Source of the DNA: Squalus acanthias
Lineage: Eukaryota
DNA: 64,000 bases
NCBI GenBank assembly: GCA_030390025.1
Contig: CM059432.1
Location: 56,484,001 to 56,548,000 of the forward strand
Reading direction: 5' to 3'
The notes under the pieces were generated by a model. That model worked only from the letters and a program-made list of their open reading frames with translations, searched no databases and had not been told where the DNA came from. Shown here in pieces: positions 7,421 to 48,654 of the stretch. The first letter of the stretch is position 1; the number at the start of each line of letters is the position of its first letter. Both the position numbers and the translations under genes were made by a program.

Positions 7421-7600
7421 TAAAATATTATGACCCTGCTTAAAAATCTCTCTTCTCGAACCTTTTCCAGTTCTGACGAAGGGTCCCCGACTCGAAACGT
7501 TGACACTCTTTCTCTCTCCTTGATGCGGCCTGACCTGCTGAATGTTTCCAGCATTTTCTGTTATTTCAGATTTCCAGCATCTGCAGTATTTTGCTATTGT
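7421..7600 (+). mobile_element. Short Penelope-end (pLTR-derived) insertion with hammerhead motif
   Basis: Flanked by a perfect 14-bp TSD acgaacatttaata (7407-7420 and 7601-7614). Homologous to the PLE 3' end at ~37195-37367. Interrupts CR1 copy A. Confidence 0.85.
7469..7504 (+). ncRNA. Minimal type I hammerhead ribozyme motif
   Basis: Reads agtt-CTGACGA-a-GGGTC(ccc)GACTC-GAAA-cg-TT-gac. It has the conserved core, a 5-bp stem II, a palindromic AACGTT helix III and a short stem I (gtt/gac). Confidence 0.65.
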
Positions 7601-8155
7601 ACGAACATTTAATAGTTTCTCACCATTTAAAAAAAATATTCTGTTTTTCTATTCTTCCTACCAAAGTGAATAACTTCACATTTACCCACATTATCCTCCA
7701 TCTACCACCTTATTGTCTACTCACTTAACCTGTCTATATCCCTTTGCAAGCTCTTTGTGTCCTCCTCAGCTTACTTTCTACCTAGCTTTGTATTGTCAGC
7801 AAACTTGGATACATTACACTCGGTCCCTTCATCAAAGTCATTAATATAGATTGTAAATAGCTGAGGCTCAAGCATAGATTCTTGCGGCACCCCATTAGTT
7901 ACTGCTTGCCAACTGGAAAATGACCCATTTATTCCTACTTTCTGTTTTCTGTCTGTTAACCAAGCCTCTGACAATGCTAATAGATTACCCCCAACCCCCT
8001 TGAGCCCTTATCTTGCATAACAATCTTTTATGCGACACCTTATCAAATGCCTTTTGGAAATCCAAATATACTACAGCCACTGGTTCCCCTTTATCTACCC
8101 TGCTGGGTACATCCTCAAAAAACTCTAATAAATTTGTCAAACACGATTTCCCTTT

Positions 8156-14815: not shown

Positions 14816-14946
14816 ATGGAATCAGTGTTGCAGGGTTACCCTTGTCAAGTCCTTTCCGACAAAATGGCAAACCACGCTCAGAGAGCAAATCTACTATTTT
14901 CAATTCAGCTGACACCAACAGTAAGAGTGAATACAATCCTGTAAAG
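14816..14946 (+). CDS. TRAPPC9: Internal coding exon of TRAPPC9 (trafficking protein particle complex subunit 9 / NIBP)
   Basis: A polypyrimidine tract and acceptor (tctcctcttgtctgtttcAG, ending 14815) precede it, and the donor is AAG|gtatga (14947). The 131-nt phase 1/phase 0 exon is stop-free and reads (D)[43 protein letters not shown]. This matches human TRAPPC9 as recalled from memory ([42 protein letters not shown]). It has no ATG in this frame, so it is absent from the ORF track. Confidence 0.9.
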
Positions 14947-32439: not shown

Positions 32440-35400
32440 GTCCTGGCGAACCGAATAACTAGGGCAGTAGACAGGGCTTTAAACTAATGAAGGGGAGGCG
32501 GGAGGATTCGGGAAAGAGTAAATTTAAAAGCAGCGAGTGAAATGTCAAGGCTCTAGAACAGAGTGGAGTTTTGGGTAAAAATAAGCAGAGTGGGTCAGGA
32601 AGGGACAGAGAGAGTAACAAAGGTAATAAGGCATTAGTGACAAAGGTGACATCAGGGAAAAAGAGAAATAAGTCAAAGCTAAAGGCACTATATCTGAATG
32701 CGCGAAGCATTCGCAACAAAATAGATGAATTAATAGCACAGATAGAAATTAATAAGTTTGATTTAATAGCCATAACGGAGACGTGGTTGCAAAGTGGCCA
32801 AGGATGTGAACTGAATATTCCAGGATACATAACTTTTAGAAGGTAAAATAGAAAAGGAGGAGGAGTAGCCCTGATAAAGGATGGGATAAAGACAGTAGAG
32901 AGAAAGGATCTTGGCTCCGAAAATCAAGAAGTAGAATCAGTTTGGGTGAAGCTAAGAAACAGCAAGGGGCAGAAAACATTGGTGTGAGTTGTTTATAGGC
33001 CCCCAAACAGTAGTTGCAATGTAGGGCAGAGTATAAATCAGGAAATTAGAGGCGCATGTAACAAGGGTAATACAGTAATCATGGGGGACTTTAATCTACA
33101 TATAGACTGGGCAAACCAAATTTACAGTAATAGTGTGGAGGATGAATTCATGGAATGTATGCAAGATAGTTTTCTCGATCAGTATGTTCTGACGAAAGGT
33201 CCCCGACTTGAAACGTTGACTCTGTTTCTCTCTCCTCGATGCTGCCTGACCTGCTGAGTGTTTCCAGCATTTTCTGTTGTTATTTCAGATTTCCAGCATC
33301 CGCAGTATTTTGCTATTGTGTTGCGGAACCAACTAGGGAACAGGCTATTTTAGATCTAGTATTGTGCAACAAGAAAGGGTTAATTAATAACCTTGTAGTA
33401 AAGGGGCCTTTAGGGAAGAGTGACCATAATATGATAGAATTTTATATTGAGTTTGTAAGTGACTTAGTTAAATCCGAAACTAGGGTCTTAAATCTAAACA
33501 AAGCAAATTACATAGGTATGAGGGCGAGTTCGCTCAGGTAGATTGGGAAACTACATTAAAAGGTATGACAGTGGACGAGCAATGGCTAGCATTTAAAGAA
33601 TTAATACATAATTTATAACAAATATACATTCCTTTAAGGCACAAAAACCCCACAGGAAAAGTGGTCCAACCGTGGCTAACGAGAGAAGTTAAAGATAGTA
33701 TTAGATCAAAGGAAGAGGCTTATAATGCTGCCAAAAAGCGTGGTAAGCCTGAGAATTGGGAGAATTTTAGAATTCAGCAAAGGAGGACCAAAAAATTGAT
33801 AAAGAAAGGGAAAATAGAATATGAGAGTAAACTAGTGAGAGACATAAAAACAGACTGTAAAAGCTTCTATAGGTATGTAAAAATGGAAAAGATTAGTGAA
33901 AGTAAATGTGGGTCCCTTGCAGGCTGGGACAGGTGAAATTATAATGGGGAATAAGGAAATGGTGGAGAAATTAAACAAATACCTTGTGTCTGTCTTTACG
34001 GAAGAAGATGCAAAGCATTTCCTGGAAATAGTGAAATTCCAAGGGTCTAGCGAGAATGAGGAACTGAAAGAAATTAGTATTAGTTAAAAAGTAGTACTGG
34101 AGAAATTAATGGGACTGAAAGTCGATAAATCCCCTGGACCTGATGGCCGACATCCTAGGGTTTTGAAAGAGTTGGCTATAGAGATAGTGGATGCATTGGT
34201 TGTCCAAAATTCCATAGATTCTAGAATGGTTCCCGTGGATTGGAAGGTAGCAAATGTAACCCCACTATTTAAGAAAGGAGGGAGAGAAAACGGGGAACAA
34301 CAGACCAGTTAGCCTGACCTCAGTAGTAGGAAAATGCTAGAATCTATTGTTAAGGACGTGGTAACAGGGCACTTAGAAAATAATAATAGCGTTGGGCAGA
34401 GTCAGCACGGATTTATGAAAGGGAAATCAAGTTTGACAAATCTGTTAGAATTTTTTGAGGTTGTAACTAGCAGAATAGATAAGGGGGAACCAGTGGATGT
34501 GGTGTATTTGGATTTTCAGAAGGCATTCGATAAGGTGCCACACAAGAGGTTATTAAACAAAATTAGGGCTCATGGGATTGGGGGTAATATACTAGCATGG
34601 ATTGAGGATTGGTTAACGGACAGAATACAGAGTAGGAATAAACGGGTCATTTTCGGGTTGGCAGGCTGTAACTAATGGGGTACCGCAAGGATCAGTGCTT
34701 GGGCCTCAGCTATTCACAATCTACATCAATGATTTGGATGAAGGGACCAAATGTAATATGTCCAAGTTTGCTGTTGATACAAAGCTGGGTGCAAATGTAA
34801 GTTATGAGGAGGATGCAAGGAGGCTTCAAGGGGATATAGACAGGCTAAGTGAGTGGGCAAGAACATGGCAAATGGAATATAATGTGGAGAAATGTGAAGT
34901 AATCCACTTTGGTGGAAAAAATTGAAAAGTAGAGTATTTTTTAAATGGTGAGAGATTGGGAAATGTTGGTGTTCAGAGGGACCTGGGTGTCCTTGTACAC
35001 GAATCACTGAAATCAAGCATGCAGGTATAGCAAGTAATTAGGAAAGCAAATGGTATGTTGGCCTTTATTACAAGAGGATTTGAGTATAAGAGTAAAGATG
35101 TCTTACTACATTTATATAGGGCCCTGGTGAGACCACACCTGGAGTACTGTGTACAGTTTTGGTCTCCTTACCTAAGGAAGGATATACTTGCCATAGATGG
35201 AGTGCAACGAAGGTTCACCAGACTGGTTCCTGGAATGGGGGGGGGGGATTGTCCCATGAGGAGAGATTGAGTAGACTAGGCCTATATTCTCTCGAGTTTA
35301 GAAGAATGAGAGGTAGTCTCATTGAAACATCCAAAATTCTTACAGGGCTTGACAGGGTAGATGCAGGGAGGATGTTTTCCCCTGGCTGGGGAGTCGAGAA

Positions 35401-35700
35401 CTAGGGGTCACAGTCTCAGAACAAGGGGTCGGCCATTTAGGACTGAGATGAGGAGACATTTCTTCACTCAGGGTGGTGAATCTTTGGAATTCTCTACCCG
35501 AGAGGGCTGTGGAAGCTCAGTCGTTGAGTATATTCAAGACAGAGATCGATAGATTTTTGTATATTAAGGGAATCAAGGGATATGGGGATAGTGCAGGAAA
35601 GTGGAGATGAGGTAGAAGATCAGCCATGATCTTATTGAATGGCGGAGCAGTCTCAAAGGGCCAAATGGCCAACTCCTGCTCCTATTTCTTATGTTCTTAT
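32440..35700 (+). mobile_element. CR1 LINE (ORF1 end, near-complete but degenerate ORF2, 3' UTR) nested in the PLE
   Basis: ORF1 end VLANRITRAVDRALN*; endonuclease LYLNARSIRNK..ITETWL and SDHN; RT motifs; tail ttcttatgttcttat at 35700. Confidence 0.95.
33189..33318 (+). mobile_element. Short Penelope-end insertion with hammerhead motif
   Basis: Interrupts CR1 gatcagtatgtt|gcggaacc (DQYVAEP). Contains CTGACGA-a-AGGTC(ccc)GACTT-GAAA-cg-TT, ends ttgctattgt, and has a short tgtt/gtt duplication or microhomology. Confidence 0.85.
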
Positions 35701-37231
35701 CCCTCTACACCTCCCTCCCCCAGCAGGACGGCCCGAGAGTACTCTGCTTCTTCCTTGAACAGAGGCCCAACCAGTCCCCATCCACCACCACAATCTCCTC
35801 TGCCTGGCTGAACTTGTTCTCACATTGAACAACTACTCCTTTGACTCCACTCATTTCCTCCAAATTAAAGGTGTTGCTGTGGGAGCCCGCATGGGTCCTA
35901 GCTATGCCTGTCTTTTCGTGGGATATGTCCACTCCTACTCGGGTCCCCTCCCTCACCTCTTTTTTCCGGTACATTGATGACTGTATCTATGCTGTTTCCT
36001 GCTCTCGCCCTGAACTAGAAAATTTCATTCATTTTGCTTCCAATTTCCACACTTCCCTCACCTTCACATGGTTCATCTCCAACTCTTCCCTTCCCTTCCT
36101 TGACTTCTCTGTCTCCATTTCTGGGGATAGGCTATCGACAAACATCCACTATAATCCGACTGACTCCCACAGCTACCTGGACTACACTTCCTCCCATCCC
36201 GCTTCCTGAAAGGACTCTATTCCATTCTCCCAGTTTCTCCTTCTCTGTCGCATCTGTTCTGACGATGCCACCTTCCATACTCGTGCTTCCGATATGTCTT
36301 CCTTTTTCCTCAACCGAGGATTCCCCTCTACCGTGGTTGACATGGCCCTCCAGCGTGTCTGTTCCATTCCCAGTACTTCTGCTCTCACCCCTTCCCTTCC
36401 CTCCCAAAACCACGATAGGTTTCCCCTTGTCTTCACCTTTCACCCCACCAGCCTCCACATTCAATGGATGATCCACCATTTCCGCCACCTCCAGCGTGAC
36501 CCCGCCACCAAACACAACTTCCCTCCCCATCCCTTTCAGCATTTCGTAGGGACTGCTCCCTCTGCGACACCCTGGTGCACCCCTCAATCACCCATGTCAC
36601 CTTCCTGTGCAAGCACAGGAGATGCAACACCTGTCCTTTTACCTCCTCCCTTCCCACTGCTCAGGGCCCCATACACTCCTCCTTCCAAGTGTAAAAGCGA
36701 TTTACTTGTACTTTAAATTTAGTATACGATGCGGTCTGCTCTACATTGGGGAGACCAAACATAGATTGGGTGACCGCTTTGCGGAACACCTCCGTTCAGT
36801 CTGCAAGTGTGACCCCGAGCTTCCGGTCGCCTGTCATTTTAATTCTCTGCTCCACTCCCACTCTGACCTTGGTCTTCGGCCTCTTACACGTTCCAATGAA
36901 GCTCGAGGAACAGCACTTCATCTTTCGATTAGGCACTTTACAGACTTCTGGATTCAACATCAAGTTCAACAATTTCAGACCTTTGCCCCAATTTTTTCAC
37001 ATGGCAGCTGTTGATGATTCTCCCATTTCCATTTGCACCTCTTCCAGACTTATCTTTTGTTTCTTTACTTGTCTCATTCCCATTGCCTTTTGCTTTGTAC
37101 TATCATACCTTTTGTCATTTAGTCTCTCCTGCATTCCACCCTATCACTGACTTCCCTTTTTGTTTTCCTCCCCTCTCCCCTTTCCCTGCCTCTGCACTTG
37201 TTTAAAATCTATTACATCTCTAACTTTTTCC

Positions 37232-37268
37232 AGTTCTGACGAAAGGTCATCGACCTGAAACATCAACT
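37232..37268 (+). ncRNA. Minimal type I hammerhead ribozyme motif at PLE 3' end
   Basis: Reads AGTT-CTGACGA-a-AGGTC(atc)GACCT-GAAA-ca-TC-AACT. Stem II is a perfect 5 bp, stem I is AGTT/AACT, and the UH site is present. Confidence 0.7.
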
Positions 37269-38806
37269 CTGTTTCTCTCTCCACAGATGCTGCCTGACCT
37301 GCTGAGTATTTCCAGCATTTTCTGTTTTTATTTCAGATTTCCAGCATCTGCGATATTATGCTTTTGTATTAATGTTCTATTAACTTTATTTTCCCAATAA
37401 TAATCCTGAATTCATGTCCTTTTAGTCCTGGTTCACGATCAAGTAGAAACAATTATTCACTATTTAGCCTCTGAAAACCTTTCACAACTTTGTAAATTTC
37501 CATTTGAGCTCTGTTCCAGTGGAAAAAGACCCATTTTTTGAACCTTTCTTAACTGTACCCCCACTTTCCTGTTACCATTTTTGTGAATTTGGGTTCTACC
37601 CATTCCATGGTTCAAATATCCTTCCCATAATAGGATACTGAGATCTGCATGCAATACTCCTAACTGCTGCCTAACCAATTCAAATTCAACACCGCTCTCT
37701 TACTTTTGCAATGTCTATGCCTTTTTATGACCTGTTTTACTTGTACCCACCACCTTTTGGAGATCTTTTGTATACATACTTCTTGGTGTCTCTGTTCCGT
37801 TTACTCTGCTAAGAATCTTGCTGTTTAGGGTATACTTCCTTTCACAGTTCTTTTCCTAAAATGTGCTGCTTAACATTTTTCCTCCGTGAACTACATTTTC
37901 CCTCTCTGCTAACCTATTTTTTTCCTGAAATTTTCTTCAGTTTGCTATGCTCCCCAGTTTGGTGTCAGCAAATGTTGGGTGGTTATATCCAAAAGAAATA
38001 CATAATTAGAGAACAGGAGGGATTGCTGGATATTGGTCAGGATCTCCAGCCGATTTTCTTCTCCATAAAGTTGGAGTGAGAAGGCTAATTCTAGTGCCTG
38101 CCTGAAAAAGATCAACTAATTCAGTACATGCCAGGGATAACAGGGATCGTTTTGATCTGAATTACTCAGCTGTGTAGTGGATAGACCCTGCTGAGCTATT
38201 GGAGGAGCTTATGTGAAAGTGTTGATGGTGTGAACTGGCAGTAGACATATGAAAACAAATGACGGATGAAAATCTGAAACAGTGATGTCATAGTTAGCAC
38301 AGAGGAAGAGCGGCAGAACCTTAGTTAAGCTAAGTGTTTAATTTACAATACACACTCTAGTTTTTAAGTATAAACCAATCTATGAACTTTAAATAAATAG
38401 TTAATTAAGTAAATAAATATTCAGAATAATTAATTTGAAATTAAACTAAATTCATTTACTAAATATAATTTAGACCAGGTGTTTCAATTAGTTGTAGAAT
38501 TAAATTACAGCTAACAAATCAATAAAAATTAGAAATGGCAGCACAGTCAGTGTGTCAGCACTGCAGTATGTAGGAGTTTGTGGACAGCGAGACTGTCCAC
38601 AGTGACCACATCTGCAGGAAATGTCTCTGCCTTGAGACACTTCAGCTCAGAGTTATTGAGCTGGGGTGTGTTTTAGAGGCACTACGACACATAAGGGAGG
38701 GGTGGATTATCTAGATAGTTTTCTCCAGAGTACAGTCACACCTCAGAGGAAAGCACAGGTGCAGGAAGGGGAGAATGTGACTGTTAGTCAGCAGGGTAGA
38801 GGAACC

Positions 38807-46235: not shown

Positions 46236-48247
46236 CCTTACCTGGTGCCAGGGTAAGGGATATCTCCAGGTGGGTGAAAAGGAACCTAGGAAGGGAGGGT
46301 GAAGAACCAGTTGTTTGGTCCATGTCAGAACAAATGAGATAGGAAAGAACAGGAAGGAGGTCCTGCTGAGGGAATATCGGGAGCTAAATTGTGCAAATTG
46401 ACATAGGGAGAAACAGGTAAGGAAGGTAAACATGTAGCTGAAGGATTGGTGTGGGAAAGAGGGGTTCACTTCCATGGGACACTGGCACCAGTATTGGGAC
46501 AGGAAGGAGCTGTATCGCTGGGATGGGCTGGGACCAAGATCCTTGCTGAAAGGATAAATAGGACTGTAGAAATGACTTTAATTCAATAAGTGGAGGTGGG
46601 GAAAAGGCTCAGTCAGAAATCAATATAAAAGTGAAAATAGCCTAAAGATAAGAAAAAGGGCTGAGAGCGACAGGTGATATTGTAATTGAAAATCAGGAAA
46701 TGGTGGACTTGCTAAATAGTTACTTTTTATCAGTCTTCACAGTAGAGGAAGAAGATAGAATGTCAGTGATACGAGGAAAAGTAAAAATAAATCAAGGAGA
46801 GGAACTTACTAGATTTAATATAGGTAAAAAAAAAAAGGTAATGGAGAAAATAATGAAATCTAAAGATAGACAAATCTCCAGGACTTGATGGTTTCCACCC
46901 CAGGGTATTAAAAGAAGTAGGTGAGGAAATTGTAGATGCTCTAGTCATGATCTTCCAAAACTTTCTTGATTTAGGAATTGTCCTCATGGATTGGAAAATT
47001 GCCAATGTCACTCCACTATTTAAGAAGGGTAAGAGAGATAAACTAGAAAATTATAGGTCTTTTAGTCTAATGTCTGTTGTTCGGAAGTTACTAGAATCTA
47101 TTGTTGGGGTCCGTGACTGAGCACTTGGACAAACATGAACTGATCAGAGAGAGCCAGCATGGACTGGTAAAGGGTAAGTCATGTCTAACGAACAGAGTTG
47201 AATTTTTTGAGGAGGTACCTAACTTAGCACATAGTGTCTATGGGTGTTATTTATATGGAAGACATTCGATAAGTTTCCACACAAGAGACTGTTAACAAAA
47301 ATTAGAGCACATGGAATTGGAGGCAACTTATTGATATGGGTAGGAAATTGGTAAGGAAGTAGGACAAAGAGTGCAGGGATAATGGGTATGTACTCCAGTT
47401 GGCAGGATGTGACTAGTTGTGTCCCTCAGCGATTTGTCGTGGGGCCTCAGCTTTTCACTATATTGACTTAGATAAACGAAGAGAGAGCCATATATCCAAG
47501 TTTGCTGACTGCACCAAGTTAGGTGGCACAGTAAATAGTGTAGATGGGAGCAGAAAGTTGCAAAGGGACATTGGCATATTAAGTGAGTAGGCAAAACTGG
47601 CAGATAGAGTTCAAGGTGGGGGTAGTGTGAGGTCATCCACTTTGGACCTAAAAAAGATAGAGCAGGGTATTTTCTGAATGGCAAGAAGCTAGAAACATTG
47701 GAGAAGCAGAAAGATTTAGGAGTCCAAGTACAGAAATCACTAAAAGCTAGTGCACAGGTACAAAAAATACATCTAAAGGGAGCAGGAATACAAAGGTGAG
47801 GAAGTTATGTTAGTTATATAAAGCTCTGGTTGGACTCCATTTAGAGTACTGCATTCAGTTCTGGGCACCATAGCTCAGGAAGGATATATTGGCCTTGGAG
47901 GGGGTGCAGCGCAGATTAACCAGAATGATACCGGGGCTAAAGGGGTTAAATAAATTTGGAAAGGTGGCATAGATGAGGTTTGTATTCCCTTGAGAATAGA
48001 AGGGGTGATGTAATTGAGTTGTTTAAGATGATTAAAGGAGTTGATAGGGTAGATAGAGAGAAACTATTTCCTCTGGTAGGGGAGTCCAAAACAAGGGGGC
48101 ACAACCTTAAAATTAGCTAGGCTGTTCAGGGGTGATATCAGGAAGCATTTTACACAAAGGGTAGTGAAAATCTGGAAAACTCTCCCCGAAAAAGCTGTTG
48201 AGGCTGGGTCAGTTGAAAATTTCAAGACCATGATTGATAGACTTTTG

Positions 48248-48464
48248 AAATAACAACAGAAAATGCTGGAAACACTCAGCAGGCCAGACAGCATCCGTGG
48301 AGAGAGAAACAGAGTTAACGTTTCATGTCTGTTACCCTTCGTCACAGACCTGAAACGTTAACTCTGTTTTTCTCTCTCCACAGATGCTGCCTGGCCTGCT
48401 GAGTGTTTCCAGCATTTTCTGTTGTTATTTCAGTTTTCCAGCTTCTGCAGTATATTGCTATTGT
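48248..48464. mobile_element. Fold-back Penelope-end short element
   Basis: Perfect 15-bp TSD attgatagacttttg (48233-48247 and 48465-48479). Inverted arms lie at 48248-48332 and 48344-48430. Same 3' terminus ttgctattgt as 7600 and 33318. Confidence 0.88.
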
Positions 48465-48654
48465 ATTGATAGACTTTTGTTAGGTTGGGGTATTAAGGGA
48501 TATAGAACCAAGGCAGGTAAACGGAGTTCAGATGCAGATCAGCCATGATCTCATTGAATGGCGGAACAGGCTCAAGGGGCTGAATAGCCTACTCCTGTTC
48601 CTATGTTTAAGCTTGTTTTTTTTCCTGTGTCAGTGAATGTTCAATTAACTAAAG

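What the first reader, a model, noticed from the sequence alone, without database searches (positions are those of the whole stretch)
37232..37268. Minimal hammerhead ribozyme carried by a shark Penelope-like element, with covarying copies
Seen: the PLE 3' end reads AGTT-CTGACGA-A-AGGTC(ATC)GACCT-GAAA-CA-TC-AACT. Copies at 7469-7504 and 33186-33220 keep the core and vary stem II in a pairing-preserving way (GGGUC/GACUC, AGGUC/GACUU, AGGUC/GACCU). All have one extra A after CUGANGA. Helix III is reduced to a self-complementary AACGUU in the short copies. Established: PLEs carry minimal type I hammerheads in their pseudo-LTRs, which are thought to act as dimers. Inference: all three motifs are on the sense strand of the TRAPPC9 pre-mRNA, so self-cleaving RNA motifs may sit in these introns.
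Basis: partly seen in the sequence, partly recalled or inferred. Interest (0 to 1): 0.7.

Follow-up and report, generated by a model that had tools for sequence, protein, structure and literature searches.

The report
Decayed hammerhead in shark Penelope retroelement
This is a copy of the small hammerhead RNA motif already known from Penelope-like jumping genes, lying in a truncated, mutated insertion in a shark TRAPPC9 intron; it has lost the pairing its kind likely needs to cut, and such copies face either way equally often in the gene, so it likely does nothing to the host.

Summary
The motif is there as described (37232-37268) and is the minimal type I hammerhead of a Neptune-like Penelope element (RT, CX4CxxC linker, GIY-YIG). 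Full-length relatives carry it in both pLTRs about 3.2 kb apart (15 of 20). The class, the extra A and the dimer idea are published (Cervera and de la Pena 2014).

Three corrections. (1) The focal copy is the damaged one: the family reads ACGU at helix III (G in 128 of 148 copies); this copy reads ACAU. (2) Covariation is thin: one pair changes on both sides (A-U 43, G-U 28, G-C 20 of 92), and that is a single subfamily split. (3) TRAPPC9 and the sense strand are confirmed, but over 784 kb of the gene copies run 33 sense to 28 antisense (intact ones 5 to 6), so there is no sign of an effect on the host.

Insertion 5' ends pile up at the motif's first bases, about 31 nt after a TATA-like box, not at the cut site. 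This suggests transcription starts there and that uncut or re-joined RNA is copied. The scan noted the same family and 5' pile-up in this and other shark genomes.

The parts
35699..37371 (+). 5'-truncated, frameshifted Penelope-like (Neptune-like) element inserted at the 3' end of a LINE; 7-bp duplication at 35691-35697 and 37372-37378
   Evidence: BLAST to a full-length copy; RT stretch 93% identical over 82 aa to the 840-aa ORF of L116; about 81-83% DNA identity to young copies; duplication
35829..36209 (+). RT C-terminal fragment with the YIDD catalytic motif
36550..37014 (+). frame holding a GIY-YIG endonuclease remnant
   Evidence: Pfam PF01541 E = 0.037, below the curated cut-off
37201..37207 (+). 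TATA-like box 31 nt before the motif (promoter role inferred)
   Evidence: a TTAAAA-type motif at -27 to -32 in 111 of 149 copies that keep the upstream pLTR
37232..37268 (+). Minimal type I hammerhead: stem I 37232-35/37265-68; CUGACGA 37236-42; extra A 37243; stem II 37244-56; GAAA 37257-60; C15.2 37261; 16.2 = A at 37262 (family G); U16.1 37263; C17 37264, predicted cut after it
37269..37371 (+). pLTR tail; in full-length copies it runs on into the ORF start region; insertions end near +102 or +136
7440..7601 (+). short copy, subfamily D (motif 7469-7505; intact core and ACGU; 3-bp stem I)
33186..33322 (+). solo motif-plus-tail copy starting at +2, inserted in a LINE (intact core and ACGU; 3-bp stem I)
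48246..48467 (.). inverted pair of truncated motif-plus-tail copies with a 15-bp target duplication (48233-48247, 48465-48479); neither half has a complete motif
14816..14946 (+). TRAPPC9 coding exon, the only one found in the window; the motifs lie in the introns on either side

Best explanation
The motif is the minimal hammerhead of a very abundant shark Penelope-like retroelement, and this copy is a truncated, mutated insertion that likely cannot cut the TRAPPC9 pre-mRNA. Shown: full-length elements carry the motif in both pLTRs, just ahead of the ORF start region; subfamily changes in the stems keep the pairing; this copy has one pLTR only and A in place of G16.2. Inferred for the active element: the RNA likely starts at the motif's first bases. 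A lone motif is predicted to fold into an inactive hairpin in which the core (UGACG) pairs with the CGUYA around the cut site. Cutting after N17 would need a second copy (the ACGU palindromes pairing as helix III) and probably the element's own protein, as shown for the Anolis element. Cutting would trim the capped first 33 nt or free unit-length RNA from tandem read-through transcripts. Most insertions were likely copied from uncut or re-joined RNA.
For: Element identity: RVT_1 and GIY-YIG on full-length ORFs (both under Pfam's cut-off); DKG and CX4CxxC motifs; Atlas hits at 0.96-0.97 to RT/GIY-YIG/HTH_animal clusters. Two motifs 2.8-5 kb apart in 15 of 20 ORF-start loci, both intact in 8 of those 15; also L116 and L122. 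No core column differs between the majority states of five young subfamilies, while loop II has several forms. Pair 10.1-11.1 is A-U 43, G-U 28, G-C 20, unpaired 1 of 92. Decay of this copy: G16.2 in 128 of 148 young copies and in 73-97% of depth in four public runs. The double-hammerhead fold is +1.8 kcal/mol for this copy against -7.1 for an intact natural copy (artificial linker). Stem I probability is 0 in its 184-nt context. No strand bias: 33:28 all, 5:6 intact, LINE control 47:39. 5' ends: 16 of 33 at risk fall in -8..+9 against 3.3 expected; 21 of 29 ORF-start loci keep the whole 5' motif and none starts at +34. Literature: PMC4209133, PMC11167929.
Against: No cleavage was measured. 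Covariation rests on one evolutionary event, along a path that CpG decay also favours. Absence of core change among young subfamilies is not significant alone (0 of 14 columns against about 8 of 68 in the tail). The inactive hairpin is conserved about as well as the hammerhead stems (93.7% vs 93.9-94.8% paired), partly because it is made of core bases. Transcription start is inferred from DNA ends only; contigs cannot show it. The strand test has little power (61 hits, one gene). Two copies with U4 changed to C exist, so an intact core may be dispensable.
Confidence: 0.8

Rival explanations
1. Intronic copies do cut the TRAPPC9 pre-mRNA, for example as a mixed dimer between the 33186 and 37232 copies 4 kb apart, and so affect splicing or output.
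For: All three complete motifs in the window are sense to TRAPPC9. The 4.0-kb spacing is close to the 3.2 kb of the native element. Two of the three keep ACGU. 11 of 38 motif-spanning copies in the gene are fully intact.
Against: Orientation is even across the gene. A mixed dimer would have a C-A mismatch in a 4-bp helix III and 3-4-bp stems I (from the sequence). The copies differ from their subfamilies by private, largely CpG-type changes. Single motifs were inactive and dimers weak in vitro (PMC4209133).
Confidence: 0.08
2. The 37 nt are kept in active elements for another job (promoter or initiator element, protein-binding hairpin, or coding frame), and catalysis is vestigial.
For: It lies about 31 nt after a TATA-like box at a 5'-end hot spot. 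The frame that leads into the first ATG is open across the motif, and three subfamily changes are silent in it. U4C copies exist. Anolis hammerhead mutants still insert in vitro (PMC11167929).
Against: No in-frame ATG upstream of the motif in the 60 nt shown for L116, L122 and L126. Subfamily E loses one loop base. Unrelated metagenome repeats keep the same core, extra A, ACGU and paired stems with different stem sequences (11 of 64 pattern hits, two families), which argues for selection on the ribozyme fold in the class.
Confidence: 0.15
3. The hammerhead resemblance is chance.
For: No Rfam hit. Folding energy no better than shuffles. The loose core pattern alone occurs at chance level (8 vs 7.4 expected).
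Against: The full descriptor gives 3 hits against 0 in 300 shuffles. The motif sits exactly where the class is known to carry it, in both pLTRs, with the published extra base and palindrome.
Confidence: 0.01

Closest known systems
Minimal hammerheads (min-HHR) in pLTRs of metazoan Penelope-like elements (Cervera and de la Pena 2014, PMC4209133; parts 1-2 of 4 read, 2 supplements searched, 1 not searchable)
   Same: Type I fold, short stem I, one unpaired base between positions 9 and 10.1, palindromic 15.2-16.2 with no helix III, in both pLTRs about 3 kb apart, most copies dispersed as single motifs.
   Different: Stem II is 4-5 bp with a 3-5-nt loop. The closing pair is mostly A-U or G-U rather than the conserved G10.1-C11.1. 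No shark term was found in the two supplements searched. This copy has lost the palindrome.
Anolis Poseidon element PAc hammerhead (Frangieh et al. 2024, PMC11167929; passages and second half of main text read)
   Same: Motif at the pLTR-ORF junction; two 3' end positions about 34 nt apart (the 'tail'); insertions appear to derive from uncut RNA.
   Different: PAc is Penelope/Poseidon clade and its start codon lies inside the motif; here the first in-frame ATG lies about 24 nt after the cut site and the element has a Neptune-type linker. Activity was not tested here.
Neptune-clade EN+ Penelope-like elements (Craig et al. 2021, PMC8557442; passages read)
   Same: RT followed by C-terminal GIY-YIG, DKG motif, CX2-5CxxC linker, 5' truncation, inverted partners, optional tail.
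   Different: No tree was built; Nematis shares the linker.
Non-LTR retrozymes (Li et al. 2026 preprint, 10.64898/2026.07.22.740005; part 1 of 5 and passages read)
   Same: Type I hammerhead in short non-coding PLE-derived repeats; one chondrichthyan genome was included.
   Different: Retrozymes are defined as tandem units; the copies here are dispersed solo or inverted pLTR ends, and the focal one is attached to ORF remnants.

Membership tests
Metazoan PLE minimal hammerhead | Core CUGANGA ... GAAA ... NUH | tested here: met
   triplet AUC
Metazoan PLE minimal hammerhead | Stem I (4-5 bp) and stem II can pair | tested here: met
   4 bp and 5 bp in the focal copy; 94.8% and 93.9% of cells paired in 92 distinct copies. 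In wider context stem I is not predicted to form
Metazoan PLE minimal hammerhead | One unpaired base between 9 and 10.1 | tested here: met
   A in 146 of 148 young copies
Metazoan PLE minimal hammerhead | Palindromic 15.2-16.2 allowing a dimer (family) | tested here: met
   C 136 and G 128 of 148
Metazoan PLE minimal hammerhead | Palindromic 15.2-16.2 (focal copy) | tested here: not met
   C-A at 37261-37262; filed as a decayed copy of a member family
Metazoan PLE minimal hammerhead | G10.1-C11.1 closing pair (highly conserved, not universal) | tested here: not met
   A-U in the focal copy; G-C in 20 of 92, essentially subfamily D
Metazoan PLE minimal hammerhead | Located in both pLTRs of the element | tested here: met
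   15 of 20 ORF-start loci; the focal element keeps only the 3' pLTR
Metazoan PLE minimal hammerhead | Compensatory changes across families | tested here: inconclusive
   one two-sided pair, one event; shuffle control exceeded (0 of 500) but it ignores relatedness
Metazoan PLE minimal hammerhead | Self-cleavage as a dimer or with protein | not testable with these tools
   needs an in vitro assay
Rfam hammerhead families | Match to a covariance model | tested here: not met
   none at E <= 10; expected for a motif without helix III
EN+ Penelope-like element, Neptune-like | RT plus C-terminal GIY-YIG in one ORF | tested here: met
   (Pfam scores below cut-offs, E 1e-5 to 4e-3)
EN+ Penelope-like element, Neptune-like | CX2-5CxxC linker and DKG motif | tested here: met
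   both in P0009; definition from PMC8557442
EN+ Penelope-like element, Neptune-like | Placement in an RT tree | not tested
   no reference PLE proteins were fetched
Non-LTR retrozyme | Two or more tandem units each with a hammerhead | tested here: not met
   window copies are dispersed or inverted

The most novel reading that the evidence does not exclude
In shark Penelope-like elements the hammerhead is the capped first 37 nt of the transcript, held shut by a core-to-cut-site hairpin (C7-G16.2 helix). It works as a switch: uncut, the RNA is translated and reverse-transcribed from +102 or +136 back to the cap, giving the many 100-140-nt solo motifs; opened by a partner copy or the element's protein, it removes its own cap or frees a unit that can circularise. 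The roughly 10^5 genomic copies would then map the transcription start and the cut state of the template, bearing on the open question of what PLE hammerheads are for.
Probability: 0.3. Interest if true: 0.55.

Novelty: new member of a known kind. Interest (0 to 1): 0.25.

Why it matters
As a single site it matters little: one decayed copy among an estimated 1.8-2.9 x 10^5 (extrapolated from one gene). The family is useful as material. It offers young full-length elements with two intact motifs, several stem variants and a very large record of insertion ends, with which the unsettled role of PLE hammerheads (dimer, protein-assisted, or dispensable) can be tested. The even orientation in a 0.9-Mb gene also suggests that intronic minimal hammerheads cost the host little.

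Tried and rejected
Rfam scan: no hammerhead. Loose core pattern: chance level. Folding z-scores: uninformative.

Splice-site idea (branch point and acceptor after the cut site, or an intron ending at CAG just before the core as in Drosophila Penelope): the downstream AG is not kept in subfamilies B, C, D and E, and no GT-AG joint appears among the 15 joints listed in each (57 and 161 more not shown). Rejected for the downstream site, unsupported for the upstream one.

An apparent class of copies starting at +103/+106 was an artefact of references running into host repeats; it vanished with a clean reference and those rows were dropped.

A pile-up of 5' ends at the cut site: 4 of 39 in +28..+38, two of them halves of copies split by a later transposon; no excess. 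A non-templated G at the 5' end: 2 of 19 short copies have G before +1 and 3 have G in place of +1; inconclusive.

A C-G to G-C compensatory change in the old subfamily F was considered and dropped, because the loop would be 2 nt. 5' versus 3' pLTR identity (0.966 own vs 0.949 other) cannot separate circle from tandem templates.

Sequencing runs: no RNA holder listed; only contigs were available. The metagenome scan gave no shark relatives. PDB search with the exon and the exact cluster look-up found nothing. Lunse et al. 2017 (PMC5785218) is not held; it may list chondrichthyan examples, as may supplement 1 of PMC4209133, which could not be searched.

Full report
1. Observation. The loose core pattern is at chance level (8 hits, 7.4 expected). 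A descriptor demanding core, a 3-bp stem I, a 4-bp stem II and NUH gives these three sites and none in 300 shuffles. They are copies of one repeat, so this is one observation. Two more truncated copies form an inverted pair at 48246-48467 with a 15-bp target duplication. Rfam has no hammerhead match at E <= 10, and folding energies equal those of shuffles.

2. The element. The focal motif ends a 1.67-kb insertion (35699-37371) with a 7-bp duplication. It holds an RT fragment with YIDD and a GIY-YIG remnant. The RT fragment has 25,128 first-look candidates in the 3.7-Gb genome. L116 holds an 840-aa frame with RVT_1 and GIY-YIG hits (below Pfam cut-offs), DKG and a CX4CxxC linker, which PMC8557442 gives for Neptune and Nematis but not Penelope/Poseidon (passages). 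Atlas hits agree. No tree was built. Of 20 loci chosen for holding the ORF start and the 5' motif, 15 have a second motif 2.8-5 kb on (about 3.2 kb when uninterrupted) and 8 of those have both intact. The tail after the motif runs into the ORF start region. The focal element is 81-83% identical to these younger copies and has no upstream pLTR.

3. The focal copy is decayed. Among 148 young copies position 16.2 is G in 128 and A in 14. In four public runs G makes up 94, 97, 97 and 73% of depth. The A at 37262 is the expected product of CpG decay (inference). It breaks the ACGU palindrome by which two motifs would form helix III. On artificial tandems the double-hammerhead fold costs +1.8 kcal/mol for this copy against -7.1 for an intact natural copy; neither is the minimum-energy fold. 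In 184 nt of context stem II forms (p 0.90-0.96) and stem I does not. For intact copies the predicted monomer pairs the core UGACG with CGUYA around the cut site, an inactive hairpin, paired in 93.7% of cells. This is a prediction, and its conservation partly follows from that of the core.

4. Covariation. I aligned 92 of 104 distinct 37-mers classed as subfamilies A-D. Twelve with junction-replaced arms or indels were dropped, and copies classed E (4), F (21) and unclassed (16) were left out; the set is enriched for relatives of the queries. 93.6% of cells pair. Only pair 10.1-11.1 changes on both sides in number (A-U 43, G-U 28, G-C 20, unpaired 1); 10.2-11.2 and 2.1-1.1 show G-U wobbles. 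The shuffle control is exceeded (0 of 500) but ignores descent: the G-C state is essentially subfamily D. Majority states of five young subfamilies differ in loop II and at four stem positions, always keeping a pair, and at none of 14 core columns, against about 8 of 68 tail columns, which is suggestive only. Unrelated metagenome repeats with the same architecture and different stems (11 of 64 hits) support the class, not this family.

5. Host gene. The exon at 14816-14946 matches chondrichthyan TRAPPC9 proteins at 81-98%, and 21 exon matches place the gene on + across C8:56.24-57.16 Mb. In 784 kb of this 920-kb span there are 61 motif-or-tail hits, 33 sense and 28 antisense (P = 0.61). Of 38 that span the motif (19:19), 23 keep the core and 11 are fully intact, 5 sense and 6 antisense. 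A LINE control gives 47:39. Power is low, but nothing suggests selection for or against sense copies. Extrapolated, the genome holds 1.8-2.9 x 10^5 copies.

6. What the insertion ends say. 3' ends cluster near +102 and +136, like the two reverse-transcription starts of Anolis PAc (PMC11167929). In TRAPPC9, 16 of 33 copies at risk begin in -8..+9 against 3.3 expected. Three rows are an alignment break or the partner of another row; with a conservative 12 of 29, P = 5e-5. Several such solo copies have 8-14-bp target duplications, others are inversion junctions. At the cut site there is no excess: 4 of 39 in +28..+38, two being halves split by a later transposon. Of 29 ORF-start loci, 21 keep the whole 5' motif and none starts at +34. 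I had noted the +1 pile-up before consulting earlier notes. The TATA lead came from them, and I found a TTAAAA-type motif at -27 to -32 in 111 of 149 copies. The bases at +1 fit an initiator consensus (recalled, not from a call). The simplest reading is a transcription start at +1 with run-off copying of uncut RNA; RT pausing or fold-back at the hairpin is an alternative. Copies longer than one unit need tandem read-through or circular templates, which DNA cannot tell apart. No read-level RNA data were available.

7. Known work. PMC4209133 (parts 1-2 of 4) describes minimal hammerheads in pLTRs of Xena, Poseidon and Neptune elements of fishes and other vertebrates, with the extra base and palindrome; a single motif showed no activity and dimers little. 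PMC11167929 shows protein-assisted cleavage that is not needed for insertion in vitro. PMC6765202, PMC6155905 and PMC2377424 were seen as passages; the 2026 retrozyme preprint (part 1 of 5 and passages) includes one chondrichthyan. I found no paper describing this shark family: hammerhead ribozyme + shark + Penelope-like gave one paper where 'shark' is a simile; Penelope + Neptune + shark + retrotransposon gave none. Lunse et al. 2017 and one supplement could not be read. The scan's own index holds 1054 notes with these words in at least 37 genomes, unchecked.

8. Verdict. A real motif of a known class in a new host family; this copy is likely inactive, and the host-intron inference is unsupported. 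Interest 0.25. The start-site and switch reading is the part worth a bench test (probability 0.3, interest 0.55 if true).

Noticed in passing
G000 C8:57,099,168-57,100,941 and 56,945,770-56,946,534; L135:1625-2468; L028:340-1114: Non-autonomous DNA transposons with GG(G)C..TTT-type inverted ends and 3-bp duplications sit exactly at the motif's cut-site DNA in at least four copies. Their general target in 26 insertions is a quasi-palindrome RANAY-AWT-RWNTY, which the motif happens to match; the Harbinger label is recalled.
   Followed up: yes
   Followed up: partly
L197-L225: An older subfamily (F) with a 4-bp stem II, two extra bases after N17 and heavy CpG decay; many copies are short and inverted near +1.
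   Followed up: partly
L116:2784-2875; L122; L291-L319: The first ATG after the motif opens a frame that ends at a stop after about 29 codons in subfamily A copies but reads through in L122: a short upstream ORF or an alternative start.
   Followed up: partly
L333: Both pLTR motifs of this element share a private loop II variant, so both ends came from one template sequence.
   Followed up: no
L226, L233, L238, L240, L241, L263, L274, L276, L282, L287, L270: Two unrelated minimal-hammerhead repeat families in metagenome contigs with the same core, extra A and ACGU.
   Followed up: no
window 14946 to C8:56,636,228: The intron holding the 33186, 37232 and 48246 copies is about 137 kb long; this PLE family makes up about 2.9% of the TRAPPC9 region.
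   Followed up: no
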